Shown: piece by piece, positions 38,908 through 64,000 of the stretch | Numbering within the stretch: position 1 is the first letter of the stretch | Layout of the letters: each line of letters starts with the position of its first letter | Source of the DNA: a virus | Length of the DNA stretch: 64,000 nucleotides | Reading direction: 5' to 3' (one strand) | Virus record (IMG/VR): IMGVR_UViG_3300025168_000034 | Location: 101,610 to 165,609 of that record | The notes under the pieces: model-generated | What the model saw: only the letters and a program-made list of their open reading frames with translations | Told to the model about the DNA's origin: nothing | Database searches by the model: none | Made by a program: the position numbers and the translations under genes

Positions 38908-40854
38908 TTAATAATTTACTACTCGTCCTTTAATATTGTTAGATGGAAATTTTACTTCAAATATCATTGGGTCAAGGCTTGGGTATATAATTCCATTTCT
39001 AGTTGAATCTTGTATGTTGTAAGCAATATTGCTATATCCTAAACTTGAATCATTAAGGTTATTGATTATAACATTTGTTACTGTCTGTACACCAGGTACT
39101 TGCAGAAGTGTGTTGTAAATATCTGTATATTGTATCGGCTGGTTTATTTGCCATTTATCAATATTAAAAAAGTCTTGTACTTTATTAATACAATTAAGCA
39201 GTACTTCGTTTGCATTACGATCTCTCAAGGGTATAATGTCAAAGTTTACTTGTATATTTACAACAAAAGCGTCACGTAAGTTAATGCTGTCAGTCAACAT
39301 TCGGTATTGGGAAAGATATGTTTTAAGATTCTCTTTGATAGCATTGTTTGTTGTCATTAAGCTTTTATTGCTATTATAACCTAACACATACATATTCATT
39401 GCAAGAGGGTTTGACACCGTATCACCTACATCACTTGTTAGTAGGTTATTTTGTTCGTCTGGGGTGATGAAAACTTTGCTAACGCTTCCAAATTTTGGAG
39501 GCATAGTCATCGCTCTTATTAAATAATCGTCTCGCGTTACTGCTCTATTTTGTGTTGAAAGCTGCTTAATGGCGTTTTGTCGAACCTCTTCTAAAGTCTC
39601 TTGCGATCTTCCTCCAACAGCTGGGGTTGGATTGTTGCATGCAATTGAGTTTAACACTGTTGTGTTTAACATTCCAGTGGTTATAGGAAAACTATCAGTA
39701 TTTGTATCTACAGCTGTCAGGTTTGTTATCTGATCACTAGCTATATTTGATTTTATACCTCCTCCAGTCAAATAAGTTACAGTAAGGGTTGTGTTAGATG
39801 GTGCAATACCATAAGCTTTTGTAATTCCAGGTGAGTTGGGATCAATAGCTTGGTCTATATCTATTTTTCCAGTTGGTAAATTCAATCCTATGTTTTCTGG
39901 AGTTGGTAGCAATTCTTCATCTGCTGAGTTACTTATCCCACTACCAAACTGTATCTCAATACCGTCGTCTAGTATTCGTGTAACAAATCGTCGTGGTACT
40001 TTTTTTAGCTTTAGAAGATAAGGAATCTCATCGCTATATACAGCTGCATCTGGATCGTTTAATGCTGTATTGGTTACAGCTTCAAATATTGTGTCTTGAG
40101 CTAAGTATGGAACTTCTGTCCATGTGTTTCCGTCTGAATCTATGATCGAATCTATTCCAATAAAGTTAGGATTGTTTATATCGTTAAAAGGTATTTTGAA
40201 TTTATAAAACTTTTTAACTGAACCTACCTCTTCTTCATATACTTGAGGAGTTGCGGACACAGCTTTAACAGTTTTTTTAGCTAAAAAGTATTCGTAATTT
40301 CCAGTTCCATCTATGCTATAAACTTGAAATTCAATTGGATCGTCTGCTGTATTGATTGAAAAATCAACCGCTTCTTGAACATAAAAATCTACTACATTAG
40401 ATTGGTCTGTACTATTAGCATTGTAAGAGTTCTCGATGAGTTGAGATAGCACAGCTTGAGCTTGCATGCCAGGCTGTATCTTTAAAGCATATCTTGTGTC
40501 TGGGACTGCGTTGTCTCCAGTTCCTGTAGAAGGCATTAGTTGAAACACGTCTAAATCTACAGTAGCAGGAACACTGATTAACGGCTTATATCCCATAGCA
40601 GCTGCGATTGCTAGTACGTTTCTTCTTTCAGTTGCTTGAAGGAGTTGGGATTCTTTAAATTGAGAATCTATATAATAATTTAATGTATCTCCAACATAGG
40701 CTATCAACTCAAGAAACATCATACCAGGCGATGCTTCGTTAAAATCATTAGCTGTGTTAGGGTAGTAGTTTTTGACAAACTCTACCAATCCTTCTTTGAT
40801 CGTATCAAAGTCTCTTCCTAAATATTGTATATTTTTTGATGGCTCTGTTGGCAT
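38908..40854 (-). CDS. gp6: Baseplate wedge protein (T4 gp6-like)
   Basis: RDFDTIK...DFNEASPGMMFLELIAYVGD, IQFGSG, YLTGGG, GGRSQET, QNRAVTRDDY. Confidence 0.9.
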   Translation of the reverse strand: MPTEPSKNIQYLGRDFDTIKEGLVEFVKNYYPNTANDFNEASPGMMFLELIAYVGDTLNYYIDSQFKESQLLQATERRNVLAIAAAMGYKPLISVPATVDLDVFQLMPSTGTGDNAVPDTRYALKIQPGMQAQAVLSQLIENSYNANSTDQSNVVDFYVQEAVDFSINTADDPIEFQVYSIDGTGNYEYFLAKKTVKAVSATPQVYEEEVGSVKKFYKFKIPFNDINNPNFIGIDSIIDSDGNTWTEVPYLAQDTIFEAVTNTALNDPDAAVYSDEIPYLLKLKKVPRRFVTRILDDGIEIQFGSGISNSADEELLPTPENIGLNLPTGKIDIDQAIDPNSPGITKAYGIAPSNTTLTVTYLTGGGIKSNIASDQITNLTAVDTNTDSFPITTGMLNTTVLNSIACNNPTPAVGGRSQETLEEVRQNAIKQLSTQNRAVTRDDYLIRAMTMPPKFGSVSKVFITPDEQNNLLTSDVGDTVSNPLAMNMYVLGYNSNKSLMTTNNAIKENLKTYLSQYRMLTDSINLRDAFVVNIQVNFDIIPLRDRNANEVLLNCINKVQDFFNIDKWQINQPIQYTDIYNTLLQVPGVQTVTNVIINNLNDSSLGYSNIAYNIQDSTRNGIIYPSLDPMIFEVKFPSNNIKGRVVNY

Positions 40855-55519: not shown

Positions 55520-56518
55520 TTATCCTGGTACATCTTCTTCAAACACTATTCCCTCTCCGGTGAGTGTACCATTAACACTACCTACCTGATCAGTTACTGT
55601 TGTTCCAGTACCTCCATCATTATCACCCATTCTATAATAATGTTGGATAGCTATAAATTGGTTACTATAATCAATGCTAGTAGCATCTGTAGGAACACCA
55701 CTATTATATAAGTTACTTACATCAGATTGAGCCAAAGATCCAGTAAAGTATACAAATTCATCTATATTGCCGTTCATAAAATCACTTGCACCATTACGTG
55801 AACCAATGTGGAATGGTGTTGTGTCATTGGTAGAAGATCCTGGAGTCATGTTGCTGGTATCAAATGATTCCGCGTGTGTCCCATTTGATGATTGTGATAC
55901 ACGACTAATACCATTTACATATATATCCATTCCAGAACTACTAAAATTTCCATTATATGTTACTACCAGATGATACCAACCAAGTGATGCGTTTGGAATA
56001 ATATTACCTCCTCCAGCATTGTCTGATCCACTGTGTACAGCAGATCTTACAGTTAATCCCTTAGGATTGTTGGTGACGGGCTCCCGTCCTTGAATTAAAA
56101 CTTTTACTCCACTAAAACTATCTACAGTTAAACTTAATCCTTTATATTCTACACCTCGACCTGAAGCTACTTTACTAGCAATTCTAACTCCGCTTTCTCC
56201 TGGATTTGAATCATGTTTTACCCATGTACTTATACTAAAAGAACTGGAAGGTGAGATTACCATATTATCACCAAACCCTATAGTACTATCCGCTACATCT
56301 CCATCAAATTTAGCAGAGTAGGTGTTTGTAAAACCACTGGCTGCAGCTGTTCCAGTATTACTACCGTAAGCCTGTAGATGTTGTTGATATCGCAAAAAAG
56401 CCTCTTTCCTTCTTCTTTGATCTTGTTTCTTTTTAGCTTTAAACGCTCCTTCCTCCTGCAACTTTTGTTTTTTTGCTAACTCACGAATATAATCTGCATT
56501 CCTTAGAAAATCTTTCAT
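55520..56518 (-). CDS. LamG/concanavalin-like domain virion protein
   Basis: SFSISTWVK, WYHLVVTY, IYVNG, HIG, MNGNIDEF, YYRMGD. Confidence 0.8.
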   Translation of the reverse strand: MKDFLRNADYIRELAKKQKLQEEGAFKAKKKQDQRRRKEAFLRYQQHLQAYGSNTGTAAASGFTNTYSAKFDGDVADSTIGFGDNMVISPSSSFSISTWVKHDSNPGESGVRIASKVASGRGVEYKGLSLTVDSFSGVKVLIQGREPVTNNPKGLTVRSAVHSGSDNAGGGNIIPNASLGWYHLVVTYNGNFSSSGMDIYVNGISRVSQSSNGTHAESFDTSNMTPGSSTNDTTPFHIGSRNGASDFMNGNIDEFVYFTGSLAQSDVSNLYNSGVPTDATSIDYSNQFIAIQHYYRMGDNDGGTGTTVTDQVGSVNGTLTGEGIVFEEDVPG

Positions 56519-57387
56519 TTATCTGTAGTAGTTTCTATTGTAACTTGTATTTTTGGTTCATATCCTTGTGGTAATTTATTTACCAATCCTTTAAAAGTGG
56601 AGTTGCCAGCATCATGTCTAAACTCAAATTTAAGATTACTAAGATCCATCATCACTTGTGAAGATGTTGTAAATCCAAAACTATTATCTCGTCTATACGG
56701 ATTCATCCACTTATCACTATCATGTTGCTTCGATAGAGCATCCAATACCTGCTCTTGCGATGAAATATCCGACAATGCATCGTAAGCTATTTGTTGCCTA
56801 GACAAAGAAGATTTTCTTTTTAATCCACCCGTATAACCAGTATCAGGATACTCAACTCCATGGTTAGTTCTTGTCACTACTTCATCAGGACCTATTCGCT
56901 TTATTATAGGAACATGTTGTGAAGTCATTTCAATAATATAGCTATGCTTAGCGTTTGATACAATTGTAAGCCCCTTGACCCCAACATCATCTTCATCATC
57001 ACCTCTAAAATTAATCACCGATCTCATAGATTGTGATAATTTAGATTGTTGTAATGCGGTTCTGATTTTTAATCCATCATAAGAAGGCTTACCATTCTTA
57101 CCTTTTTTAGCTTTATCTTTTGCTAAATCTCCCTCTTTTTCATCAAAACCAACCATTAAAGATGCATTTACTACACCAATACCCTTCTCATTTAGACCTT
57201 CACTCCAATCGGTTAAGACGTCTCGCATATAAACCATCTCTATACCATTCACAATTTCGTGCACTACTTCAAGATCTGGAGCATACATTCTATCGCGGTT
57301 CTTTGCCAAAACTACATTGCCATCAACACGGCAGCGCGCAATCACACACTCGTTTAATTCGTGAAGAAGGTTACGTAATTTTATCAT
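56515..57387 (-). CDS. Ntn-hydrolase (C45/NRDE-like) with cleavable leader
   Basis: MIKLRNLLHELNE|CVIA...LAKNRDR, WSEGLNEKGIGVVN, RTNHG, SSLSR, TTSSQVM. Confidence 0.75.
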   Translation of the reverse strand: MIKLRNLLHELNECVIARCRVDGNVVLAKNRDRMYAPDLEVVHEIVNGIEMVYMRDVLTDWSEGLNEKGIGVVNASLMVGFDEKEGDLAKDKAKKGKNGKPSYDGLKIRTALQQSKLSQSMRSVINFRGDDEDDVGVKGLTIVSNAKHSYIIEMTSQHVPIIKRIGPDEVVTRTNHGVEYPDTGYTGGLKRKSSLSRQQIAYDALSDISSQEQVLDALSKQHDSDKWMNPYRRDNSFGFTTSSQVMMDLSNLKFEFRHDAGNSTFKGLVNKLPQGYEPKIQVTIETTTDK

Positions 57388-57412: not shown

Positions 57413-57820
57413 CTATTCTTTAGTTTCCTTATGCTGATCAATCTTTTCTAGTATTTTCTTGAAGAGGTCTGTTTTTATCCATCCACTCAGCGACGCATTC
57501 TTTAATGCGCTAACTATTTGGAAAATTAAAAATGGCACAATAACTGTTTCACTTAACCAAGAGGTTCCTACAAAACTCTTCTCTATAGAAAGGAGTACAC
57601 CTAATATAACCCACCACAAAGCTAAAGTTCTTAAAACTTTTATTGCTTTATATGTTCTAAATCCTTCTCTTTTAACACCTGCTATAACACCAAAAAAGCC
57701 ATCCAATAATACAACACAACCTACTGATAAAAATTGTTCTGCATTATCCATAGCAAGACCTAGGAAGTAAGAACACACAAAGGCGCATGTAGTTGTTATT
57801 GAGATTACTGCAGTTTTCAT
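57413..57820 (-). CDS. Holin (phage holin 4-like)
   Basis: 3-4 TM segments, LDGFFGVIAG, SALKNA; overlaps the endolysin stop. Confidence 0.75.
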   Translation of the reverse strand: MKTAVISITTTCAFVCSYFLGLAMDNAEQFLSVGCVVLLDGFFGVIAGVKREGFRTYKAIKVLRTLALWWVILGVLLSIEKSFVGTSWLSETVIVPFLIFQIVSALKNASLSGWIKTDLFKKILEKIDQHKETKE

Positions 57821-58788
57821 AAAGCTTTAAGCATATCAACTAATTCTAATTGTGGAAAGCAATCAAACTTATCTTTACGAACATTTGTGTGAGTCCATAA
57901 TCCAAATTGCTTTGCATTATAAGCATCTGAGTTAAACTCAAAAGCATCTTTAGGATGTACTCCCTCTTTTAGGAGTTTAGGTAATCCATTAACCAGATCC
58001 ATTTTTGGATAAATGTCTTTAAGATGTAATATAAGCAATCGAAGAGCTTCAATCTGCTTTTCTGTATAAGCATGCCAGTATTGGTGTCCTCTAAACTTAT
58101 AACCTAAATCACAAACAAATTCCGGTTTAACTTCTGTATTAACATATGTGTAATATTTGTCTCCAGAGGTCGAAGGTTTCTTAGTTAGGTATCCAAAGTT
58201 ATTAAGCTCTACTCCTCCAGACATCTTTGAAATTGCAAACTTACCCACTTTACCTAAGTGCCAACCTACGTAATTATTAGGAAAACACTCTACGACAGTT
58301 CCGTCGTATTTAGCTTCTTTACCCTTTACATTAGAACCTCCAATACAGTACTGAGTAGCTACTCTTCCTCGCTTATCCTTGTTCCAGCTGTGTATGGTGT
58401 TGTATGGATTGTCCCAACCAGCAGTGTGATGTATAAAGAATCCTAACGGTTCAATCTTGCCATAATCTCTTACATACTCATCAGAATCCAAATACACCTT
58501 ATCAATCACAAGACCACCTTTAGTTGTGTATGTTCCGTGTTTTGCTAACTTATCATCTTTATCATACGCTGTATCTTCAGCCGTAGTGTCCTTAGTGTTA
58601 TCTGTGTCAATTCCTGCAGCTTCCCATGTTGCTCGACCCACAATTCCATCTGCTACCAAGCCATTTTTCTTTTGCCACTCAACTGTCAACTTCTCTGTAC
58701 CTGCACCAAATATTCCATCTGCTGGCGTACCTATCACCTTCTGCCACTCCTTTACTTCTAAACCTCTACTTCCTTTTTTTAACAACAT
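57817..58788 (-). CDS. Endolysin: PG-binding domain + N-acetylmuramoyl-L-alanine amidase
   Basis: LKKGSRG...DGIFGAGT...DGIVGRATW; IHHTAG, GVEL, THTNV...KFDC. Confidence 0.9.
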   Translation of the reverse strand: MLLKKGSRGLEVKEWQKVIGTPADGIFGAGTEKLTVEWQKKNGLVADGIVGRATWEAAGIDTDNTKDTTAEDTAYDKDDKLAKHGTYTTKGGLVIDKVYLDSDEYVRDYGKIEPLGFFIHHTAGWDNPYNTIHSWNKDKRGRVATQYCIGGSNVKGKEAKYDGTVVECFPNNYVGWHLGKVGKFAISKMSGGVELNNFGYLTKKPSTSGDKYYTYVNTEVKPEFVCDLGYKFRGHQYWHAYTEKQIEALRLLILHLKDIYPKMDLVNGLPKLLKEGVHPKDAFEFNSDAYNAKQFGLWTHTNVRKDKFDCFPQLELVDMLKAL

Positions 58789-58802
58789 ATTTTATTTTTT
58801 TA

Positions 58803-59132
58803 TTAGAAATCACTCATCATAGACTCATCCACAAACTCTTGCACATCTTCTTGCTTTGCATCAATTTGCATCATAATATTAGCCTGATATCTTTTCTTTT
58901 CCTCTCCATCAACAAACACTATTATAGTAGGTAATACCACTATTTTATATTTTGTTTTTAGTTTAGGATATTTGGTAAGATCATAATACTTAACACTGCA
59001 GTCTGTTAACTTTCCGAGCCAAGCTACCTTATTAGCATCATTCCACGAAGCATTAAAATGTTTAACAACCACTTGAGAATAACTCTTCGTAGCACACAAA
59101 CATATTAACGCAAACATCAATATTAATCTCAT
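58803..59132 (-). CDS. Secreted thioredoxin-fold protein lacking CxxC
   Basis: Signal peptide ...KSYS|Q; FNASWN in place of FxAxWCxxC; KYKIVVLPTIIVFVDGEEKKR cis-Pro region. Confidence 0.7.
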   Translation of the reverse strand: MRLILMFALICLCATKSYSQVVVKHFNASWNDANKVAWLGKLTDCSVKYYDLTKYPKLKTKYKIVVLPTIIVFVDGEEKKRYQANIMMQIDAKQEDVQEFVDESMMSDF

Positions 59133-59137
59133 AGCTT

Positions 59138-59422
59138 TTATCTTAGTTTGTCAATTTTTTCCTCTATACGATCCATATCTTCCTTCAACTCTGTGACATC
59201 TTCTTGAGTTGTCATAATAGTTTGTCGAACCAACTGATCTTTCATATCGTACTCCATCCGTGTCACTTCAGGATCTGGAGGGATCGGAAGCTCTTTTGCT
59301 TCTTGTATATCTGCTTGTAATGCAAACCACATTCCTACTATGGTCGCAATTGCAAAAGCAAGACCTACCAAAGTTTTGATACTTATCTTAAAACCTGTAT
59401 CCTCATTTAACTCTTTTGCCAT
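59138..59422 (-). CDS. Single-TM coiled-coil membrane protein
   Basis: TM LVGLAFAIATIVGMWFAL followed by a coiled coil. Confidence 0.6.
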   Translation of the reverse strand: MAKELNEDTGFKISIKTLVGLAFAIATIVGMWFALQADIQEAKELPIPPDPEVTRMEYDMKDQLVRQTIMTTQEDVTELKEDMDRIEEKIDKLR

Positions 59423-59424
59423 TT

Positions 59425-60489
59425 TTAAAAAATTATGTAATTGACACCAACACTAAAGTTGTGCCAACTACGATTCCAGTACTTGTTATATTTGCCTTCT
59501 AGGAACACTCCTAAGCTTTTATTGAACTTGTAACCGAAAATTAATCCTCCAGAATAGTCGATCCACTGACCGCTGTTAAAGTTGTGATATGAGTAATCAC
59601 CATCTGCCTTTAGGTGCACTGGCATTACATTACCCCATGAGTGCAACCAAAAATCTTTAGTATAATGATAGAAGTCAAACCCTATAACAAGGGAATGATT
59701 CCACTGTAAAGGTAGAGCACTTCGCTCTTCCTCTGTGTATTTTGCTAACACTTCTGGAACAACAACCGCTTCCCACACTTGAGTGTTTTCTGCTACTAAC
59801 TCTCCTGCTGGATCAAAATATGTAACACCACCAAAACCATCAAATTCAACTGAATACCCTTCTTGTATTGCTAACTGAGTGTAGTGCAGATTACCATCGG
59901 ATAACAACCAACTTTCTAATGGATTGTATCCATATGGCTCCGATATACGCTGTACTGCTCCTATATTAAACGACAACTTATCGCCTACTTTTTGTCTATA
60001 TCTTTCTGAAGATTCAAAATATTGAATATCTGCAAATCCATCTTGGACATACTCAACCTTAGCTATCCAATGATTAGCTACATATCGTAAAAAATGATCT
60101 TGATTAAAAAACGACGTTCCTTGCTGTCTAGTCCAATCTGCCTCAAATAAAAATTCAAAGCCATTTATTTTTCCAATTGTAGCAGCGTCTCCGTATGATT
60201 TTTCTGTACCGTCATAAAACACATTAGCTCGATTTTCATAACCAAATCTAGCAATCTTTCTCACACCTATTGCAATAGAATAATCAAAAGGTGTTTTAAC
60301 TGTGTTTGTCTGCAATCCATCTGTCACTGAAAATACATCGACATCTGAAATTGAGTTACCACCCGAGACTGCTCCATAAAACGTAGAGTATTTGACTAAC
60401 TTTTTAACAGTCTTAGAGAATTTAGATTGCTCTTCTTGACCGAATAATATTGTTGGTATTAGTAAGAATAGTATTAAAAGCTGCTTCAT
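59425..60489 (-). CDS. Putative outer-membrane beta-barrel protein
   Basis: Signal peptide ...ILFG|Q; amphipathic aromatic-rich strands; C-terminal beta-signal SVGVNYIIF. Confidence 0.75.
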   Translation of the reverse strand: MKQLLILFLLIPTILFGQEEQSKFSKTVKKLVKYSTFYGAVSGGNSISDVDVFSVTDGLQTNTVKTPFDYSIAIGVRKIARFGYENRANVFYDGTEKSYGDAATIGKINGFEFLFEADWTRQQGTSFFNQDHFLRYVANHWIAKVEYVQDGFADIQYFESSERYRQKVGDKLSFNIGAVQRISEPYGYNPLESWLLSDGNLHYTQLAIQEGYSVEFDGFGGVTYFDPAGELVAENTQVWEAVVVPEVLAKYTEEERSALPLQWNHSLVIGFDFYHYTKDFWLHSWGNVMPVHLKADGDYSYHNFNSGQWIDYSGGLIFGYKFNKSLGVFLEGKYNKYWNRSWHNFSVGVNYIIF

Positions 60490-62888
60490 TGTTTTATAAT
60501 TCTTTTAGTAAATCTCTTTTCTTCATGTATTAGTGTTAAGAGATATACACCGGTTTCATATATACCCAACTCTAAACGATTATCCTTTCCAGTCAACATT
60601 AGTTTACCCATCATATCTCTCAACTCATAATTAAATGTTAGATGTGTTTCAATAGTGACGGTGTTGTCTGTTGGGTTTGGATATACGAGAATTCCATTAA
60701 TATCCATCTCGTCAATACCCACTGGCCACCCTTGTTGACAGTAATCATACATAGATTGACATGATGCATCCCATTCATTTTCACAACAATAAACATCTAC
60801 ATCTATTACCCAAGCATAGCATCCATCATTTAACCAGTAAGGGTTTCCAGGACCACCTACACATCCTGCGTCATATAGACAAGCTAATGAGTCTGTTACA
60901 TTTGCTGTTGGATCATAATTAAATGCATTTGGATCTGTACATCCAGCAACTGGCAATATACATGTCCCATTATCTGTATTAGCTAGGGGATCGAAGTTTA
61001 ATGCTGTTGAGTCTATACACCCAAAAGTGACTGGTATACAAGATCCATTATCCGTATTGGCTAATGGATCGTAATTAAATTGTGTAGGGTCCATACAACC
61101 ATAAATAACATCTATACAGCTTCCATTGTCGGTGTTTGCGTTTGGATCGTAATTAAAGGCGTTAGGATCTGTACATCCATATATTGGATAAATACATGTA
61201 CCATTATCGACGTTTGCTGTAGTGTCATAATTTAGAGCAGTTGAGTCTGTGCATCCAAAATATATACAAGAACCGTCATCAACATTAGCAAGAGAATTGT
61301 AGTTGTAAGATATAGAATCCATACAACCATATACTGTAGCAATACATGAACCATCATCAACGTTTGCATTTGGATTATAGTTAAATGCTAGGTTATTTGT
61401 ACAACCTTCTATGATTGCAATACATGAACCATCATCGGTATTGGCTAATGAATCGTAATTAAATGAAGTAGAATCCATACAACCATATATTTTAGGTTCA
61501 CAATAATCTCCACAGAATGGCAATGCAGAATATGTAATCCATGTTGGTTCTTCAAAAGGCTGTAATGCTCCTTGTCCATTATTTGCAAATGGATTAGCAC
61601 CTTCTTCTAACAGCACAACACCATCTGCATTTTCTAACTTAAATGAATTATGCCAGGTCTGGAATTGTACTTGAGAAGGTGGTTGTTGTGGTCCACCTAC
61701 TTCAAAGTAATATACCTTGACTGGTTTATCAGTATCTAATTGTAATGGAAAGGTTTGGCTAGATGCACCTGGTCCCATAGTATAAGTCCATAAATTTGTT
61801 CCTTGAGCAACACCTAAATAAGAATTACCCCATCCATCACTAGCATCATCTTCTATTGTTAGTGTGTAGTTACAAGTTGGAATTATAGCTTGCATTGTAG
61901 CATTAGAGTCATAATTAAATGCTGCAGTATCAATACACCCATACACGTGCAGATTAGCACATGTACCATCATCTATATTAGCTAGCGAATCAAATTCTTG
62001 ATATGCAGGATCTGTACATCCTAACACAGGAGTTATACCGCTACAAGGAACACCAAATACTGGTCCCGAATATGCTGTAGAACCGAAGTTAGGATTACCT
62101 AATTGCCATAAGACACTACCATTGCAATCATATATAGTAATATCACCATCAACCGTACCGCCAGTAGTTGATCCAGCTAAACCATCACCATAAGAATCAC
62201 TAAATATTAACTCTGCACCTGCAGGATCAACACATACAGTATAGCTGTAGGTTTGTCCTATATCATTAAAATCGTAAGTACCTTGTCCATTGTTTTCGAG
62301 CTGATTCCCGTTTGACAGGTCTACTAATATCCACGAAGTTTCGCTTGGATAGCTGTCTAAAGTTACCTCTACTGTTATTTCAAAATCTCCAGGATCACAG
62401 CCACTACTCCCACCTCCACCAACACAAGAACCATCATCTTCTGTCGCCCATGGATTATATGCTATAGAGTTAACATCCATACATCCAGGTATACAAGCAG
62501 ATGGAGTGTATGCTATAGTATCGGATTGTGTTCCGTTAGAATAATTTAAAATTAGATAATGTTCTACAGACCAGTTTGGAGGCATATTCGGTGTTCCGGC
62601 AAATACACCAAAGTTGCCTTGAGGTGAACTTGAAGGATATCCTATTGGATATATAAATGGTCCAACTCCTGCGGCAGTTGAATACTCTACCGAAACAACA
62701 TCCTCATTGCAATTAGCAGTAGTATCGTTAAACCATTCAAATATAATAATTACTTGACTTCCACCATTAATGCATTGTTGATATGCATTTGAACTTATAA
62801 AGTTGCAAGGTGTTTGCGCAATAGAAATTATTGGCAATAAAACCGCTAACAGAAACGCACTAAAACTCTTCGTCAGAAACTTCTTCAT
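60486..62888 (-). CDS. T9SS (Por) cargo protein with Cys-rich GCxD...DDGSC repeats
   Basis: Start MKKFLTKSF (62888), signal ...ISIA|Q; 11 repeats; C-terminal VYPNPT...RDMMGKL...GVYLL...TKRIIKQ type-A CTD. Confidence 0.85.
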   Translation of the reverse strand: MKKFLTKSFSAFLLAVLLPIISIAQTPCNFISSNAYQQCINGGSQVIIIFEWFNDTTANCNEDVVSVEYSTAAGVGPFIYPIGYPSSSPQGNFGVFAGTPNMPPNWSVEHYLILNYSNGTQSDTIAYTPSACIPGCMDVNSIAYNPWATEDDGSCVGGGGSSGCDPGDFEITVEVTLDSYPSETSWILVDLSNGNQLENNGQGTYDFNDIGQTYSYTVCVDPAGAELIFSDSYGDGLAGSTTGGTVDGDITIYDCNGSVLWQLGNPNFGSTAYSGPVFGVPCSGITPVLGCTDPAYQEFDSLANIDDGTCANLHVYGCIDTAAFNYDSNATMQAIIPTCNYTLTIEDDASDGWGNSYLGVAQGTNLWTYTMGPGASSQTFPLQLDTDKPVKVYYFEVGGPQQPPSQVQFQTWHNSFKLENADGVVLLEEGANPFANNGQGALQPFEEPTWITYSALPFCGDYCEPKIYGCMDSTSFNYDSLANTDDGSCIAIIEGCTNNLAFNYNPNANVDDGSCIATVYGCMDSISYNYNSLANVDDGSCIYFGCTDSTALNYDTTANVDNGTCIYPIYGCTDPNAFNYDPNANTDNGSCIDVIYGCMDPTQFNYDPLANTDNGSCIPVTFGCIDSTALNFDPLANTDNGTCILPVAGCTDPNAFNYDPTANVTDSLACLYDAGCVGGPGNPYWLNDGCYAWVIDVDVYCCENEWDASCQSMYDYCQQGWPVGIDEMDINGILVYPNPTDNTVTIETHLTFNYELRDMMGKLMLTGKDNRLELGIYETGVYLLTLIHEEKRFTKRIIKQ
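60879..61484 (-). repeat. Eight tandem ~24-26-aa GC(T/M/I)DxxAxNYDxxANxDDGSC coding repeats
   Basis: Visible in the translation and in recurring ggatcgtaattaaa-like DNA. Confidence 0.85.
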
Positions 62889-63198
62889 TTTTATTGTTAC
62901 TTTTGTTGTTACTAAACACCTTACCAATCTCAGCAATACCAAAACTACCTAAGGTTACTATTAAAAATGAGTTATAAATAAACTCCGAAATAACTAGATG
63001 GTTACCTAACACACCAGTTATAATGTCTGTGATTGCAAATATTGCCATCATACCAAATGAAAGAAAACCAACTATAGTTTTCTCATTGATACCATTATCG
63101 TCTTTGAAAATATCTCTAAAAGCCATAAATTTTCTATTTAAGAACATCACAATTCTTGAAACCTTTATAGCATTATATAACCTCTTAAAGATGCTCAT
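62860..63198 (-). CDS. Two-TM membrane protein (holin-like)
   Basis: NEKTIVGFLSF TM1, FLIVTLGSFGI TM2, charged C-tail; alternative start at 63126. Confidence 0.6.
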   Translation of the reverse strand: MSIFKRLYNAIKVSRIVMFLNRKFMAFRDIFKDDNGINEKTIVGFLSFGMMAIFAITDIITGVLGNHLVISEFIYNSFLIVTLGSFGIAEIGKVFSNNKSNNKNEEVSDEEF

Positions 63199-63204
63199 GT
63201 TAAT

Positions 63205-63212
63205 TATAAATA
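63205..63212 (-). promoter_or_regulatory. Late promoter motif heading the envelope/lysis operon
   Basis: TATTTATA immediately after the terminator and 6 nt before the 63198 ATG. Confidence 0.7.
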
Positions 63213-63216
63213 GCTC

Positions 63217-63249
63217 TGAAAAATAGAAAATGCCGGTCTTGCCGGCATT
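63217..63249 (-). terminator. Rho-independent terminator
   Basis: AATGCCGG-N5-CCGGCATT hairpin (63229-63249), then TTCTATTTTT on the minus strand. Confidence 0.8.
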
Positions 63250-63270
63250 AACTTTAAGCTGTTTATTGTT

Positions 63271-64000
63271 TTATAAAATAAATTCTTGAATATTAAACGC
63301 GTTCTTAATCTCTCGCACTTCTTGCATGAAATCTCGTCGATTTTCATCGGGTAACTGTTTAGAAATGTGCAATATAAGAGCGGTACTTGTCTTGAATTTT
63401 TTCGTAATTTTTTTGTCAAATCCATTAGCCTCAGCCACCTCACATATCGTGTTAAAAACACCTAAATCCATCGGATTTTTGGTGATTTCTGCCATCGTAT
63501 CTTGCGCATCAAAAAGCTTTTTTAGAAAGTCTTTAAAGGTAGGATCGGTGGTTTTTACTTGCGGAAACTCTTGCTGAACTTTACCTAAAAATTCGTTAAA
63601 ATCACTCGATTCATCCGCTAAAATGTCTAATTCTGAAAATGCTCCTTCGTCTAGCTTTATTGCATATCTACCTAGATTCTCTTTAAGATCATCCTTACGC
63701 ATATACCCTTGAACCACAGTACGAGGATTAGCTATACTCTTCATTTTATCAAGAAATTTCAATCTCTCACCTAACACGTTTTGCATGAGCTCTATCGTTT
63801 CAGAATCGAATTCATCATTAACATATGCAACGAACTCCTTAGCTGTGAATTTGGGTGCTGCCCCTTCATTAACTGATTCTTTCTCATAAATCTCTACAGC
63901 ATCATCGCCATATTGTTTTATCTTCCAGCCTCTCAGTTTTCCAAGCCTCATAACAGATTTTACAAATAGAGTTTTGTCGCTAGCTGATATATTAGTATCA
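63271..64000 (-). CDS. Putative internal head protein, probably 5'-truncated by the window edge
   Basis: Frame stays open upstream of the 63951 ATG to the window end; modules separated by VNE/LKE/LDE/MAE. Confidence 0.55.
   Translation of the reverse strand, partial: DTNISASDKTLFVKSVMRLGKLRGWKIKQYGDDAVEIYEKESVNEGAAPKFTAKEFVAYVNDEFDSETIELMQNVLGERLKFLDKMKSIANPRTVVQGYMRKDDLKENLGRYAIKLDEGAFSELDILADESSDFNEFLGKVQQEFPQVKTTDPTFKDFLKKLFDAQDTMAEITKNPMDLGVFNTICEVAEANGFDKKITKKFKTSTALILHISKQLPDENRRDFMQEVREIKNAFNIQEFIL

What the first reader, a model, noticed from the sequence alone, without database searches (positions are those of the whole stretch)
57413..63249. Late envelope operon: T9SS cargo + OM beta-barrel + redox-dead thioredoxin co-transcribed with endolysin and holin
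Seen: a terminator (63229-63249) and late motif (63205) head seven tightly packed genes. These are a 2-TM protein, an 800-aa secreted Cys-repeat protein with a T9SS CTD, a beta-barrel ending in a Phe beta-signal, a TM-coiled-coil protein, a secreted thioredoxin fold without CxxC, an amidase endolysin and a holin. Known: the T9SS exports CTD proteins to the Bacteroidota surface, and BAM inserts beta-signal barrels. Inference: the phage uses host T9SS and BAM late in infection to build a trans-envelope or surface complex. Possible roles are non-spanin outer-membrane disruption, lysis timing or inhibition, superinfection exclusion, or adhesion of infected cells. I do not know of such a module described in a lysis cassette.
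Basis: partly seen in the sequence, partly recalled or inferred. Interest (0 to 1): 0.9.

Follow-up and report, generated by a model that had tools for sequence, protein, structure and literature searches.

The report
Phage envelope trio plus T9SS fibre
An uncultured marine Bacteroidota phage carries, inside its lysis genes, a conserved set of exported proteins (outer-membrane barrel, inner-membrane coiled coil, inactive periplasmic thioredoxin, and a type IX secretion fibre) whose role is untested. It may be a new way of handling the host outer membrane at lysis.

Summary
A terminator and a recurrent TATTTATA promoter-like motif head seven tightly packed minus-strand genes. They encode a small membrane protein (TM2), an 800-aa type-A T9SS cargo and a 12-stranded outer-membrane barrel. 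Then come a TM coiled-coil protein (TMcc), a secreted thioredoxin fold without CxxC, an Amidase_2 endolysin and a holin.

The contig is not a chimera. The barrel occurs in 573 viral contigs, and among 185,579 species genomes only in seven MAG contigs.

Cargo, barrel, TMcc and thioredoxin stay together in 61 of 80 related loci despite rearrangement. They lie within 3.5 kb of holins or endolysins of changing families in 49 of 80.

A new point: a second, about 45-kb podovirus-like lineage (130 contigs) keeps TMcc-thioredoxin-barrel beside a holin with no T9SS cargo. The trio is therefore the core, and the cargo is a lineage-specific addition.

I read the trio as a lysis-cassette envelope complex acting at the outer-membrane step, spanin-like but with a barrel instead of a lipoprotein (confidence 0.4). 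Surface remodelling or superinfection exclusion is the main rival. No binding or function was shown.

This scan has already noted the same module on other DNA (e1-3446781, e1-5680281 and others). I found no paper describing it.

The parts
63229..63249 (-). Intrinsic-terminator-like stem-loop plus T-run that ends the upstream gene
   Evidence: 8 pairs, 5 of them G-C, followed by TTCTATTTTT
63204..63213 (-). Promoter-like motif CTATTTATAA, 5 nt upstream of the first ATG of the block
   Evidence: 36 copies on the coding strand versus 7 on the other; about 24 lie 3-20 nt upstream of ATGs, including structural genes
62860..63198 (-). TM2: 112-aa small membrane protein, a conserved lysis-cassette neighbour (candidate second holin or antiholin)
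   Evidence: Hydropathy. Present in 33 of 80 related loci. 48% identical to immuto26A_79, which adjoins that phage's endolysin and holin.
60486..62888 (-). Cargo: 800-aa secreted protein with three beta-sandwich domains, about 11 Cys/Asp-rich 21-23-aa repeats and a type-A T9SS C-terminal sorting domain
   Evidence: TIGR04183, PF18962; FnIII/Ig-like, adhesin-like matches; PF18962 on most homologues
59425..60489 (-). 354-aa outer-membrane 12-stranded beta-barrel with a signal peptide; its start overlaps the cargo stop (ATGA)
   Evidence: No Pfam, PHROG, NCBIfam or PDB sequence match. C-termini GxNY[VI]I[FLY].
59138..59422 (-). TMcc: 94-aa protein with an N-terminal TM helix, a Pro-rich linker and a charged helix; the most conserved member of the set
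   Evidence: 53% identity to the podovirus-lineage copy
58803..59132 (-). 109-aa secreted thioredoxin-fold protein with WNDAN in place of WCGPC, a conserved cis-Pro VPT motif and an invariant C-terminal Phe in the myovirus lineage
57817..58788 (-). Endolysin: PG_binding_1 plus Amidase_2
57413..57820 (-). Holin (Phage_holin_4_1) with 3-4 hydrophobic segments
   Evidence: 66% nucleotide identity to the annotated holin of Flavobacterium phage immuto
57399..57408 (-). Next promoter-like motif (CTATTTATTA, one mismatch) before the following gene; marks the downstream end of the block

Best explanation
The block is a phage lysis cassette: TM2, endolysin and holin. A set of exported envelope proteins has been built into it.

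The core of that set is a trio:
- **TMcc**, anchored in the inner membrane with a short periplasmic coiled coil.
- **A soluble periplasmic thioredoxin-fold protein** that has lost its redox cysteines and probably acts as an adaptor.
- **A 12-stranded outer-membrane barrel**, probably inserted by the host BAM machinery.

I propose that the trio links or acts on the two membranes at the last, outer-membrane step of lysis. It would be a functional analogue of two-component spanins, with a barrel in place of the lipoprotein o-spanin.

In this myovirus lineage the barrel gene is translationally coupled to a long, adhesin-like, Cys/Asp-repeat fibre. That fibre is exported by Sec and the host T9SS, and is probably held at or near the barrel on the infected cell surface late in infection.

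**Shown:** the folds, the signals, the co-conservation and the linkage to lysis genes.
**Inferred:** the localisation, the complex formation, the late timing and the role in lysis.
For: **Export signals and folds** are listed under the observation check.

**Co-conservation in the myovirus lineage**
- 573 viral contigs carry the barrel. In the best 80, cargo occurs in 73, TMcc in 69 and thioredoxin in 67, and all four in 61. Most of the remaining loci are cut by contig ends.
- Three gene orders occur, and they are rotations of one cyclic order.

**Linkage to lysis genes, with the partners changing**
- Amidase_2, a phrog_33083-type endolysin, an M15-like peptidase fragment (recognised from its sequence motif, not an HMM match), a Phage_holin_4_1 holin and a phrog_3427/GTA_holin_3TM holin all appear next to the set.
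- Such a gene lies within 3.5 kb in 49 of 80 loci, with a median gap of 0.7 kb.

**TM2 marks an older cassette.** Its homologue in cultured Flavobacterium phage immuto lies directly beside that phage's endolysin and holin. In the window the four genes therefore sit inside an ancestral cassette.

**Independent lineage.** 130 contigs of 35-57 kb with a P22-type portal and SU10-type capsid keep TMcc-thioredoxin-barrel in 71-76 of 80 loci. A holin follows in 60 of 80, and there is no T9SS cargo.

**Spanin comparison**
- TMcc has i-spanin topology.
- No lipoprotein o-spanin candidate lies in or overlaps the cassette.

**Expression hint.** Contigs identical to the module occur in seawater metatranscriptome libraries of two studies. 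They bridge the TMcc-barrel, amidase-thioredoxin and holin-amidase junctions.
Against: - There is no functional or binding evidence.
- Spanins usually evolve fast, whereas TMcc is unusually conserved (59-99% within the lineage, 53% between lineages).
- The periplasmic part of TMcc is only about 55 residues, too short to span the periplasm alone.
- No known spanin uses a beta-barrel or a thioredoxin fold.
- Accessory genes such as lambda bor and lom also sit near late or lysis genes, so position alone is weak evidence.
- The relatives within each lineage are kin, so the locus counts are not independent. Real independence rests on two lineages plus the swapped lysis partners.
- RNA-library contigs cannot exclude DNA carry-over.
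- 'Late' timing is inferred only from the shared motif upstream of structural genes.
Confidence: 0.4

Rival explanations
1. Surface remodelling. The barrel, together with the T9SS fibre where present, changes the infected cell's surface. It would mask or occupy phage receptors, giving superinfection exclusion or protecting progeny from adsorbing to debris, or it would make the cell adhesive. TMcc and thioredoxin would serve as assembly helpers. The position near lysis genes would be incidental.
For: - The cargo is adhesin-like: FnIII/Ig-type sandwiches matching SiiE and fibronectin, and MAM domains in some homologues.
- The cargo is the most variable member in identity, length and repeat number.
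- The cargo stop overlaps the barrel start. This mirrors the arrangement of a T9SS substrate with its cognate shuttle gene directly downstream (PMC12618676).
- A preprint cites work showing that lambda Lom, a phage OM barrel, blocks LamB to exclude superinfection (bioRxiv 10.64898/2026.10.24.761521).
Against: - The trio persists without any cargo in the podovirus-like lineage.
- Its neighbours there and in the myovirus lineage are holins and endolysins.
- The barrel is not a PorP/SprF member.
- Type-A CTDs use host PorV and need no dedicated shuttle (PMC12618676).
Confidence: 0.25
2. Lysis-timing control. The trio relays an envelope or periplasmic signal to the holin or TM2, as an antiholin or lysis-inhibition-like device, rather than breaking the outer membrane itself.
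For: - Constant proximity to holins and to TM2.
- TMcc is a small inner-membrane protein with a periplasmic domain, as T4 RI is (own knowledge).
- The high conservation would fit binding to a conserved partner.
Against: - No similarity to any known antiholin.
- An outer-membrane barrel has no precedent in such control.
- Nothing links TMcc to the holin physically.
Confidence: 0.1
3. The genes are exported accessory proteins with separate roles, for example a Tsx- or KdgM-like solute channel that helps the infected cell. They merely share a variable late region.
For: - The best fold matches are small solute channels, Tsx, KdgM and NanC.
- Phage-encoded OM barrels of many kinds were catalogued recently in huge phages.
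Against: - The trio is kept together through rearrangements and across two phage lineages.
- Overlapping or near-abutting reading frames suggest coupled expression.
Confidence: 0.1
4. Assembly artefact or host-phage chimera: the envelope genes are host DNA joined to a phage contig.
For: The block lies within 7 kb of the contig end.
Against: - The same block lies internally in many long viral contigs, for example 155.7-kb and 170.8-kb ones, flanked by DnaB, RNR, holins and tail genes.
- Of 185,579 species genomes only seven MAG contigs carry the barrel, and no isolate does.
- The nearest structure clusters in the ESM Atlas are 100% viral.
Confidence: 0.01

Closest known systems
Two-component spanins (lambda Rz/Rz1 type; Kongari et al. 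2018, PMC6139136)
   Same: They sit in the lysis cassette beside holin and endolysin. One partner is a small type-II inner-membrane protein with a periplasmic coiled coil, and the other is in the outer membrane.
   Different: The outer-membrane partner here is a 354-aa beta-barrel rather than a small lipoprotein. A third, soluble thioredoxin-fold protein is always present. TMcc is far more conserved and shorter than typical i-spanins. There is no sequence similarity.
T9SS substrate plus cognate outer-membrane shuttle pairs (SprB/SprF, Fjoh_3952/Fjoh_3951; PMC12618676, PMC9143113)
   Same: The gene for a CTD-bearing adhesin-like cargo is followed directly by the gene for an outer-membrane beta-barrel. 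The two are likely made in matched amounts.
   Different: [quoted passage not shown] Here the CTD is type A, which normally uses host PorV. The barrel shows no PorP/SprF similarity (hhalign probability 0.2%), and the pair is phage-encoded.
Phage-encoded T9SS cargo of 'Cryophage' (Bellas et al. 2020, PMC7468147)
   Same: Phage genes carry type-A T9SS sorting domains and vary strongly between phage variants.
   Different: Those cargoes are enzymes or PA14 proteins in flexible islands. No partner barrel, TM coiled coil, thioredoxin or lysis-cassette setting is described for them.
Phage-encoded outer-membrane barrels (lambda Lom; huge-phage OMP catalogue, bioRxiv 10.64898/2026.10.24.761521)
   Same: A signal-peptide beta-barrel made by a phage and inserted into the host outer membrane.
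   Different: Lom has 8 strands and acts in exclusion. The catalogue covers phages above 200 kb and does not mention T9SS or thioredoxin. It does not describe this trio or its holin linkage in the passages I searched. This family has 12 strands and is virus-only.

Membership tests
T9SS type-A CTD substrate (TIGR04183 / PF18962) | C-terminal sorting domain scoring above the curated cut-off | tested here: met
   41.9 bits versus 23 and 33.5 bits versus 27, at residues 735-800. PF18962 is on most of the 120 listed homologues.
T9SS type-A CTD substrate (TIGR04183 / PF18962) | N-terminal Sec signal peptide | tested here: met
   Hydrophobic segment at residues 3-31, followed by IAQ. Judged by inspection; no SignalP was available.
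T9SS type-A CTD substrate (TIGR04183 / PF18962) | Secretion depends on a host T9SS | not testable with these tools
   The host is unknown. Two Bacteroidota MAGs that hold related phage contigs each carry six PorP/SprF genes, but binning is unreliable.
PorP/SprF shuttle family (PF11751) | Sequence membership in the family | tested here: not met
   No Pfam hit at E up to 0.1. hhalign of the barrel alignment against seven PorP/SprF domains gives probability 0.2%.
PorP/SprF shuttle family (PF11751) | Gene lies directly downstream of its cargo gene | tested here: met
   4-nt overlap in the window. Cargo is followed by barrel in most loci that hold both; in about ten the cargo instead follows the thioredoxin gene.
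Two-component spanin | i-spanin: N-terminal TM helix plus periplasmic coiled coil, encoded in the lysis cassette | tested here: met
   TMcc hydropathy and a charged heptad-like tail, with lysis-gene neighbours. This is topology only, not homology.
Two-component spanin | o-spanin: small outer-membrane lipoprotein with a lipobox Cys, adjacent to or embedded in the i-spanin gene | tested here: not met
   No embedded or adjacent lipoprotein ORF. A genome-wide regex finds none near the cassette. Thioredoxin signal peptides lack a conserved Cys.
Thioredoxin family (PF00085) | Thioredoxin fold by profile, with the cis-Pro loop | tested here: met
   Family profile against PDB thioredoxins, E 3.8e-10. 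V-P-T is invariant. The single sequence is below the Pfam cut-off (18.6 bits versus 23.5).
Thioredoxin family (PF00085) | CxxC active site | tested here: not met
   0 of 67 homologues keep it. Most have [WF]NxxN.
BAM-dependent outer-membrane beta-barrel | Signal peptide, closed beta-barrel and a hydrophobic or aromatic C-terminal beta-signal | tested here: met
   Model and fold matches. C-termini end in F, L or Y in nearly all of 80, and in R in four. Insertion by BAM itself is inferred.
Phage holin, Phage_holin_4_1 (PF05105) | HMM above the gathering score and multiple TM segments | tested here: met
   24.4 bits versus 22.2; 3-4 hydrophobic segments.
Amidase_2 endolysin (PF01510) | Amidase_2 domain above cut-off plus a cell-wall-binding domain | tested here: met
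   31 bits versus 26, and PG_binding_1 36.8 bits versus 23. The catalytic zinc ligands were not checked.

The most novel reading that the evidence does not exclude
The TMcc-thioredoxin-barrel trio is a third kind of phage outer-membrane disruption machinery. It would be a three-part, BAM-inserted 'barrel spanin' used by Bacteroidota phages that lack Rz/Rz1-type spanins. In some lineages it would be coupled to a T9SS-exported surface fibre.
Probability: 0.3. Interest if true: 0.9.

Novelty: new variant of a known kind. Interest (0 to 1): 0.7.

Why it matters
How phages of Bacteroidota get through the host outer membrane at lysis is largely unknown, and recognisable spanins are rarely found in them. 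Here a fixed set of three exported proteins of no described family sits beside holins in at least two abundant marine phage lineages, about 700 contigs in all. That gives a concrete, testable candidate for this step.

The module also shows a lytic phage using three host export routes at once: Sec, BAM and T9SS. If the trio instead remodels the cell surface, it would extend Lom-type exclusion to marine Flavobacteriia. Either way it bears on lysis and particle-attached carbon turnover in the ocean.

Tried and rejected
- **Complex prediction:** barrel + TMcc(40-94) + thioredoxin(21-109) scored 0.00 and gave no verdict. It counts neither for nor against binding.
- **Barrel sequence searches:** nothing in Pfam, PHROGs, NCBIfam or PDB sequences. 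Distant barrel homologues carry no informative Pfam domain.
- **Cultured phages:** tblastn of the barrel, TMcc and thioredoxin from both lineages against 50,697 phage records found nothing significant. Only TM2 and the holin match immuto.
- **PorP/SprF relationship:** rejected.
- **Cargo N-terminal half:** no Pfam or PDB sequence match. The fold matches are generic beta-sandwiches, so no enzyme is indicated.
- **Atlas feature search for TMcc:** only unnamed viral clusters; DUF2730 and similar scored below 0.9.
- **Short contigs:** several distant barrel homologues lie on contigs too short to give context. L084 has a barrel after tail-like genes, but the contig ends there.
- **RNA-library contigs:** zero depth over the 63018-63351 terminator/promoter gap in three runs. 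This is not usable as evidence because no DNA run was laid.
- **Motif statistics:** the 10-mer with one mismatch is not enriched over shuffles (19 versus 14.1). The signal is the strand bias and the position before ATGs.
- **Literature:** searches for a description of this module found none.
Full report
**Setting**

The window is the last 64 kb of a 165,609-bp IMG/VR viral contig that CheckV rates 98% complete. Nearly all genes are on the minus strand. The phage is a myovirus with gp6/gp25-like baseplate wedge proteins. Its nearest cultured relatives by the baseplate protein are 'Microcystis phage Mel-JY01' (47% identity) and Flavobacterium phage immuto (42%).

**The observation**

- A terminator-like hairpin lies at 63249-63229. 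The motif CTATTTATAA at 63213-63204 precedes the first ATG.
- TATTTATA occurs 36 times on the coding strand and 7 times on the other. About 24 copies lie 3-20 nt upstream of ATGs, including baseplate and fibre genes. It is therefore a real phage promoter-like element, and 'late' is an inference.
- Seven ORFs follow with overlaps or gaps of at most 14 nt.
- The family assignments hold:
  - Type-A T9SS CTD on the 800-aa protein (TIGR04183 41.9 bits versus 23).
  - PG_binding_1 plus Amidase_2.
  - Phage_holin_4_1.
- The 354-aa protein matches no sequence family. Its AF2 model (pLDDT 71) matches 12-stranded outer-membrane barrels: Tsx Z 13.3 (rmsd 3.5 over 190 residues), EstA 12.8, KdgM 12.3, NanC 11.8.
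- The 109-aa protein is a thioredoxin fold by family profile (E 4e-10 against PDB thioredoxins). It has WNDAN in place of WCGPC, and none of 67 homologues keeps CxxC.
- Cargo, barrel and thioredoxin all have signal peptides that would leave an N-terminal Gln, the Bacteroidota 'Q-rule' (PMC10367356).
- The N-terminal half of the cargo models as three beta-sandwich domains resembling adhesin and fibronectin modules. It is followed by about 11 Cys/Asp-rich repeats. No enzyme domain was found.

**Not a chimera**

- The barrel has relatives in 573 viral contigs, many internal to contigs of 100-170 kb.
- An exhaustive profile search of 1.8 billion proteins finds only 411 clusters. The nearest ESM Atlas clusters are all viral.
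- Among 185,579 species genomes only seven MAG contigs carry it, three of them labelled Bacteroidota.

**Co-conservation**

- In the 80 closest loci, cargo is present in 73, TMcc in 69 and thioredoxin in 67. All four occur in 61, and most of the remaining loci are cut by contig ends.
- Gene order is cargo-barrel-TMcc-trx in 40 loci, barrel-TMcc-trx-cargo in 10 and TMcc-trx-cargo-barrel in 8. These are rotations of one cyclic order.
- The cargo varies most: 36-92% identity, 700-1388 aa, 37-79 Cys, and MAM domains in some.
- TMcc varies least (59-99% identity).

**Link to lysis**

- The window's own amidase appears in only 16 of 80 loci and its holin in only 6 of 80.
- Other loci carry a phrog_33083-type endolysin, a phrog_3427/GTA_holin_3TM holin, or an M15-like peptidase fragment (recognised by its motif only) next to the set.
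- A bona fide lysis gene lies within 3.5 kb in 49 of 80 loci, with a median gap of 0.7 kb.
- TM2 has a 48%-identical homologue in cultured phage immuto that directly adjoins that phage's endolysin and holin. In the window, TM2 and the endolysin-holin pair flank the four-gene set.

**A second lineage**

- A barrel homologue at 30% identity lies in about 45-kb contigs with a P22-type portal and an SU10-type capsid.
- There the order is TMcc (53% identity), thioredoxin (again without CxxC), barrel, one or two small genes, then a GTA_holin_3TM holin.
- Across 80 of its 130 contigs, TMcc is present in 71, thioredoxin in 76 and the holin in 60. No T9SS cargo is found.
- The trio is therefore the conserved unit. 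It moves between phage types and stays by a holin. The cargo is an addition in the myovirus lineage.

**Mechanism**

A standard Gram-negative lysis cassette has a holin, an endolysin and an outer-membrane disruptor (PMC6139136). This cassette has no lipoprotein o-spanin candidate. It does have an i-spanin-like TMcc and an outer-membrane protein.

My best reading (0.4) is that the trio acts at the outer-membrane step, with the redox-dead thioredoxin as a periplasmic adaptor. The fibre would be displayed through T9SS at or near the barrel.

Points against this reading:
- TMcc is unusually conserved and its periplasmic part is short.
- No spanin with a barrel or a thioredoxin fold is known.
- No binding evidence was obtained.

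The main rival (0.25) is surface remodelling or exclusion, as reported for lambda Lom (cited in bioRxiv 10.64898/2026.10.24.761521). The barrel is not a PorP/SprF shuttle, although the cargo-then-barrel gene order copies that logic (PMC12618676).

**Expression**

Contigs identical to the module occur in seawater metatranscriptome libraries from two studies and bridge several gene junctions. This is compatible with a polycistronic transcript, but DNA carry-over is not excluded.

**Novelty**

Phage T9SS cargo (PMC7468147) and phage outer-membrane barrels (the preprint above) are each reported. I found no description of the trio, its holin linkage or its coupling to a T9SS cargo. No cultured phage carries it. 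Earlier notes of this scan describe the same module on other DNA, and my results agree with them and add the podovirus-like lineage.

Noticed in passing
L040:465-656, L041:1363-1554, L064:7216-7407 (also L065, L075): A 63-aa Pro-rich lipoprotein-like ORF (signal peptide ending IVGC) lies between the cargo and barrel genes in some relatives. It resembles an o-spanin in size and composition. The window has no counterpart.
   Followed up: partly
L001:7186-7849 (immuto26A_84 and _85): In cultured phage immuto, which lacks the trio, a 116-aa TM coiled-coil gene overlaps the next gene by 47 nt, three genes from the holin. This looks like a spanin-type pair and may be the functional counterpart of the trio.
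   Followed up: no
window 58803-59132 and alignment A4: The C-terminal Phe of the thioredoxin-fold protein is invariant in all 27 aligned myovirus-lineage sequences. The podovirus-lineage copy ends in FQ. A terminal Phe on a soluble periplasmic protein suggests a docking role.
   Followed up: partly
L107:112-1200: One barrel homologue (P0025) translates to the recorded protein only if TGA is read as Trp. This hints at a recoded phage or host carrying this family.
   Followed up: no
L019, L058, L064, L077, L082 and others (cluster c4): A family of 121-141-aa Thr/Ser-rich proteins without family hits occurs in two to six paralogous copies per locus, around TMcc-trx in some relatives.
   Followed up: no
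L085, L086, L090 (genome contigs): Phage contigs carrying the barrel are binned into MAGs labelled Nitrosopelagicus, Parvibaculum and Rickettsiales, the last as a 120-kb contig. This is probably mis-binning of phage DNA.
   Followed up: no
window 38908-40854: The closest cultured match of the baseplate wedge protein is 'Microcystis phage Mel-JY01' (47% identity), ahead of Flavobacterium phage immuto. The recorded cyanobacterial host may deserve a second look.
   Followed up: no
window 56515-57387 and 55520-56518: Directly downstream, under its own motif copy, lie a C45/Ntn-hydrolase-like gene (NF040521, E 9e-9, below cut-off) and a Laminin_G_3 protein. The C45-like gene follows the holin only in the closest relatives (6-7 of 80).
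   Followed up: partly
window 60900-62000: Metatranscriptome contigs show many joints and loose ends inside the cargo repeat region. These are most likely assembler cross-joins between repeats or between related phages, not splicing.
   Followed up: no
L010:10640-11722 (cluster c18) and L001:5979-7124 (immuto26A_86): A 330-440-aa protein with several N-terminal TM helices and a long coiled coil recurs just after the endolysin in several relatives and in immuto. It is another uncharacterised member of the lysis neighbourhood.
   Followed up: no
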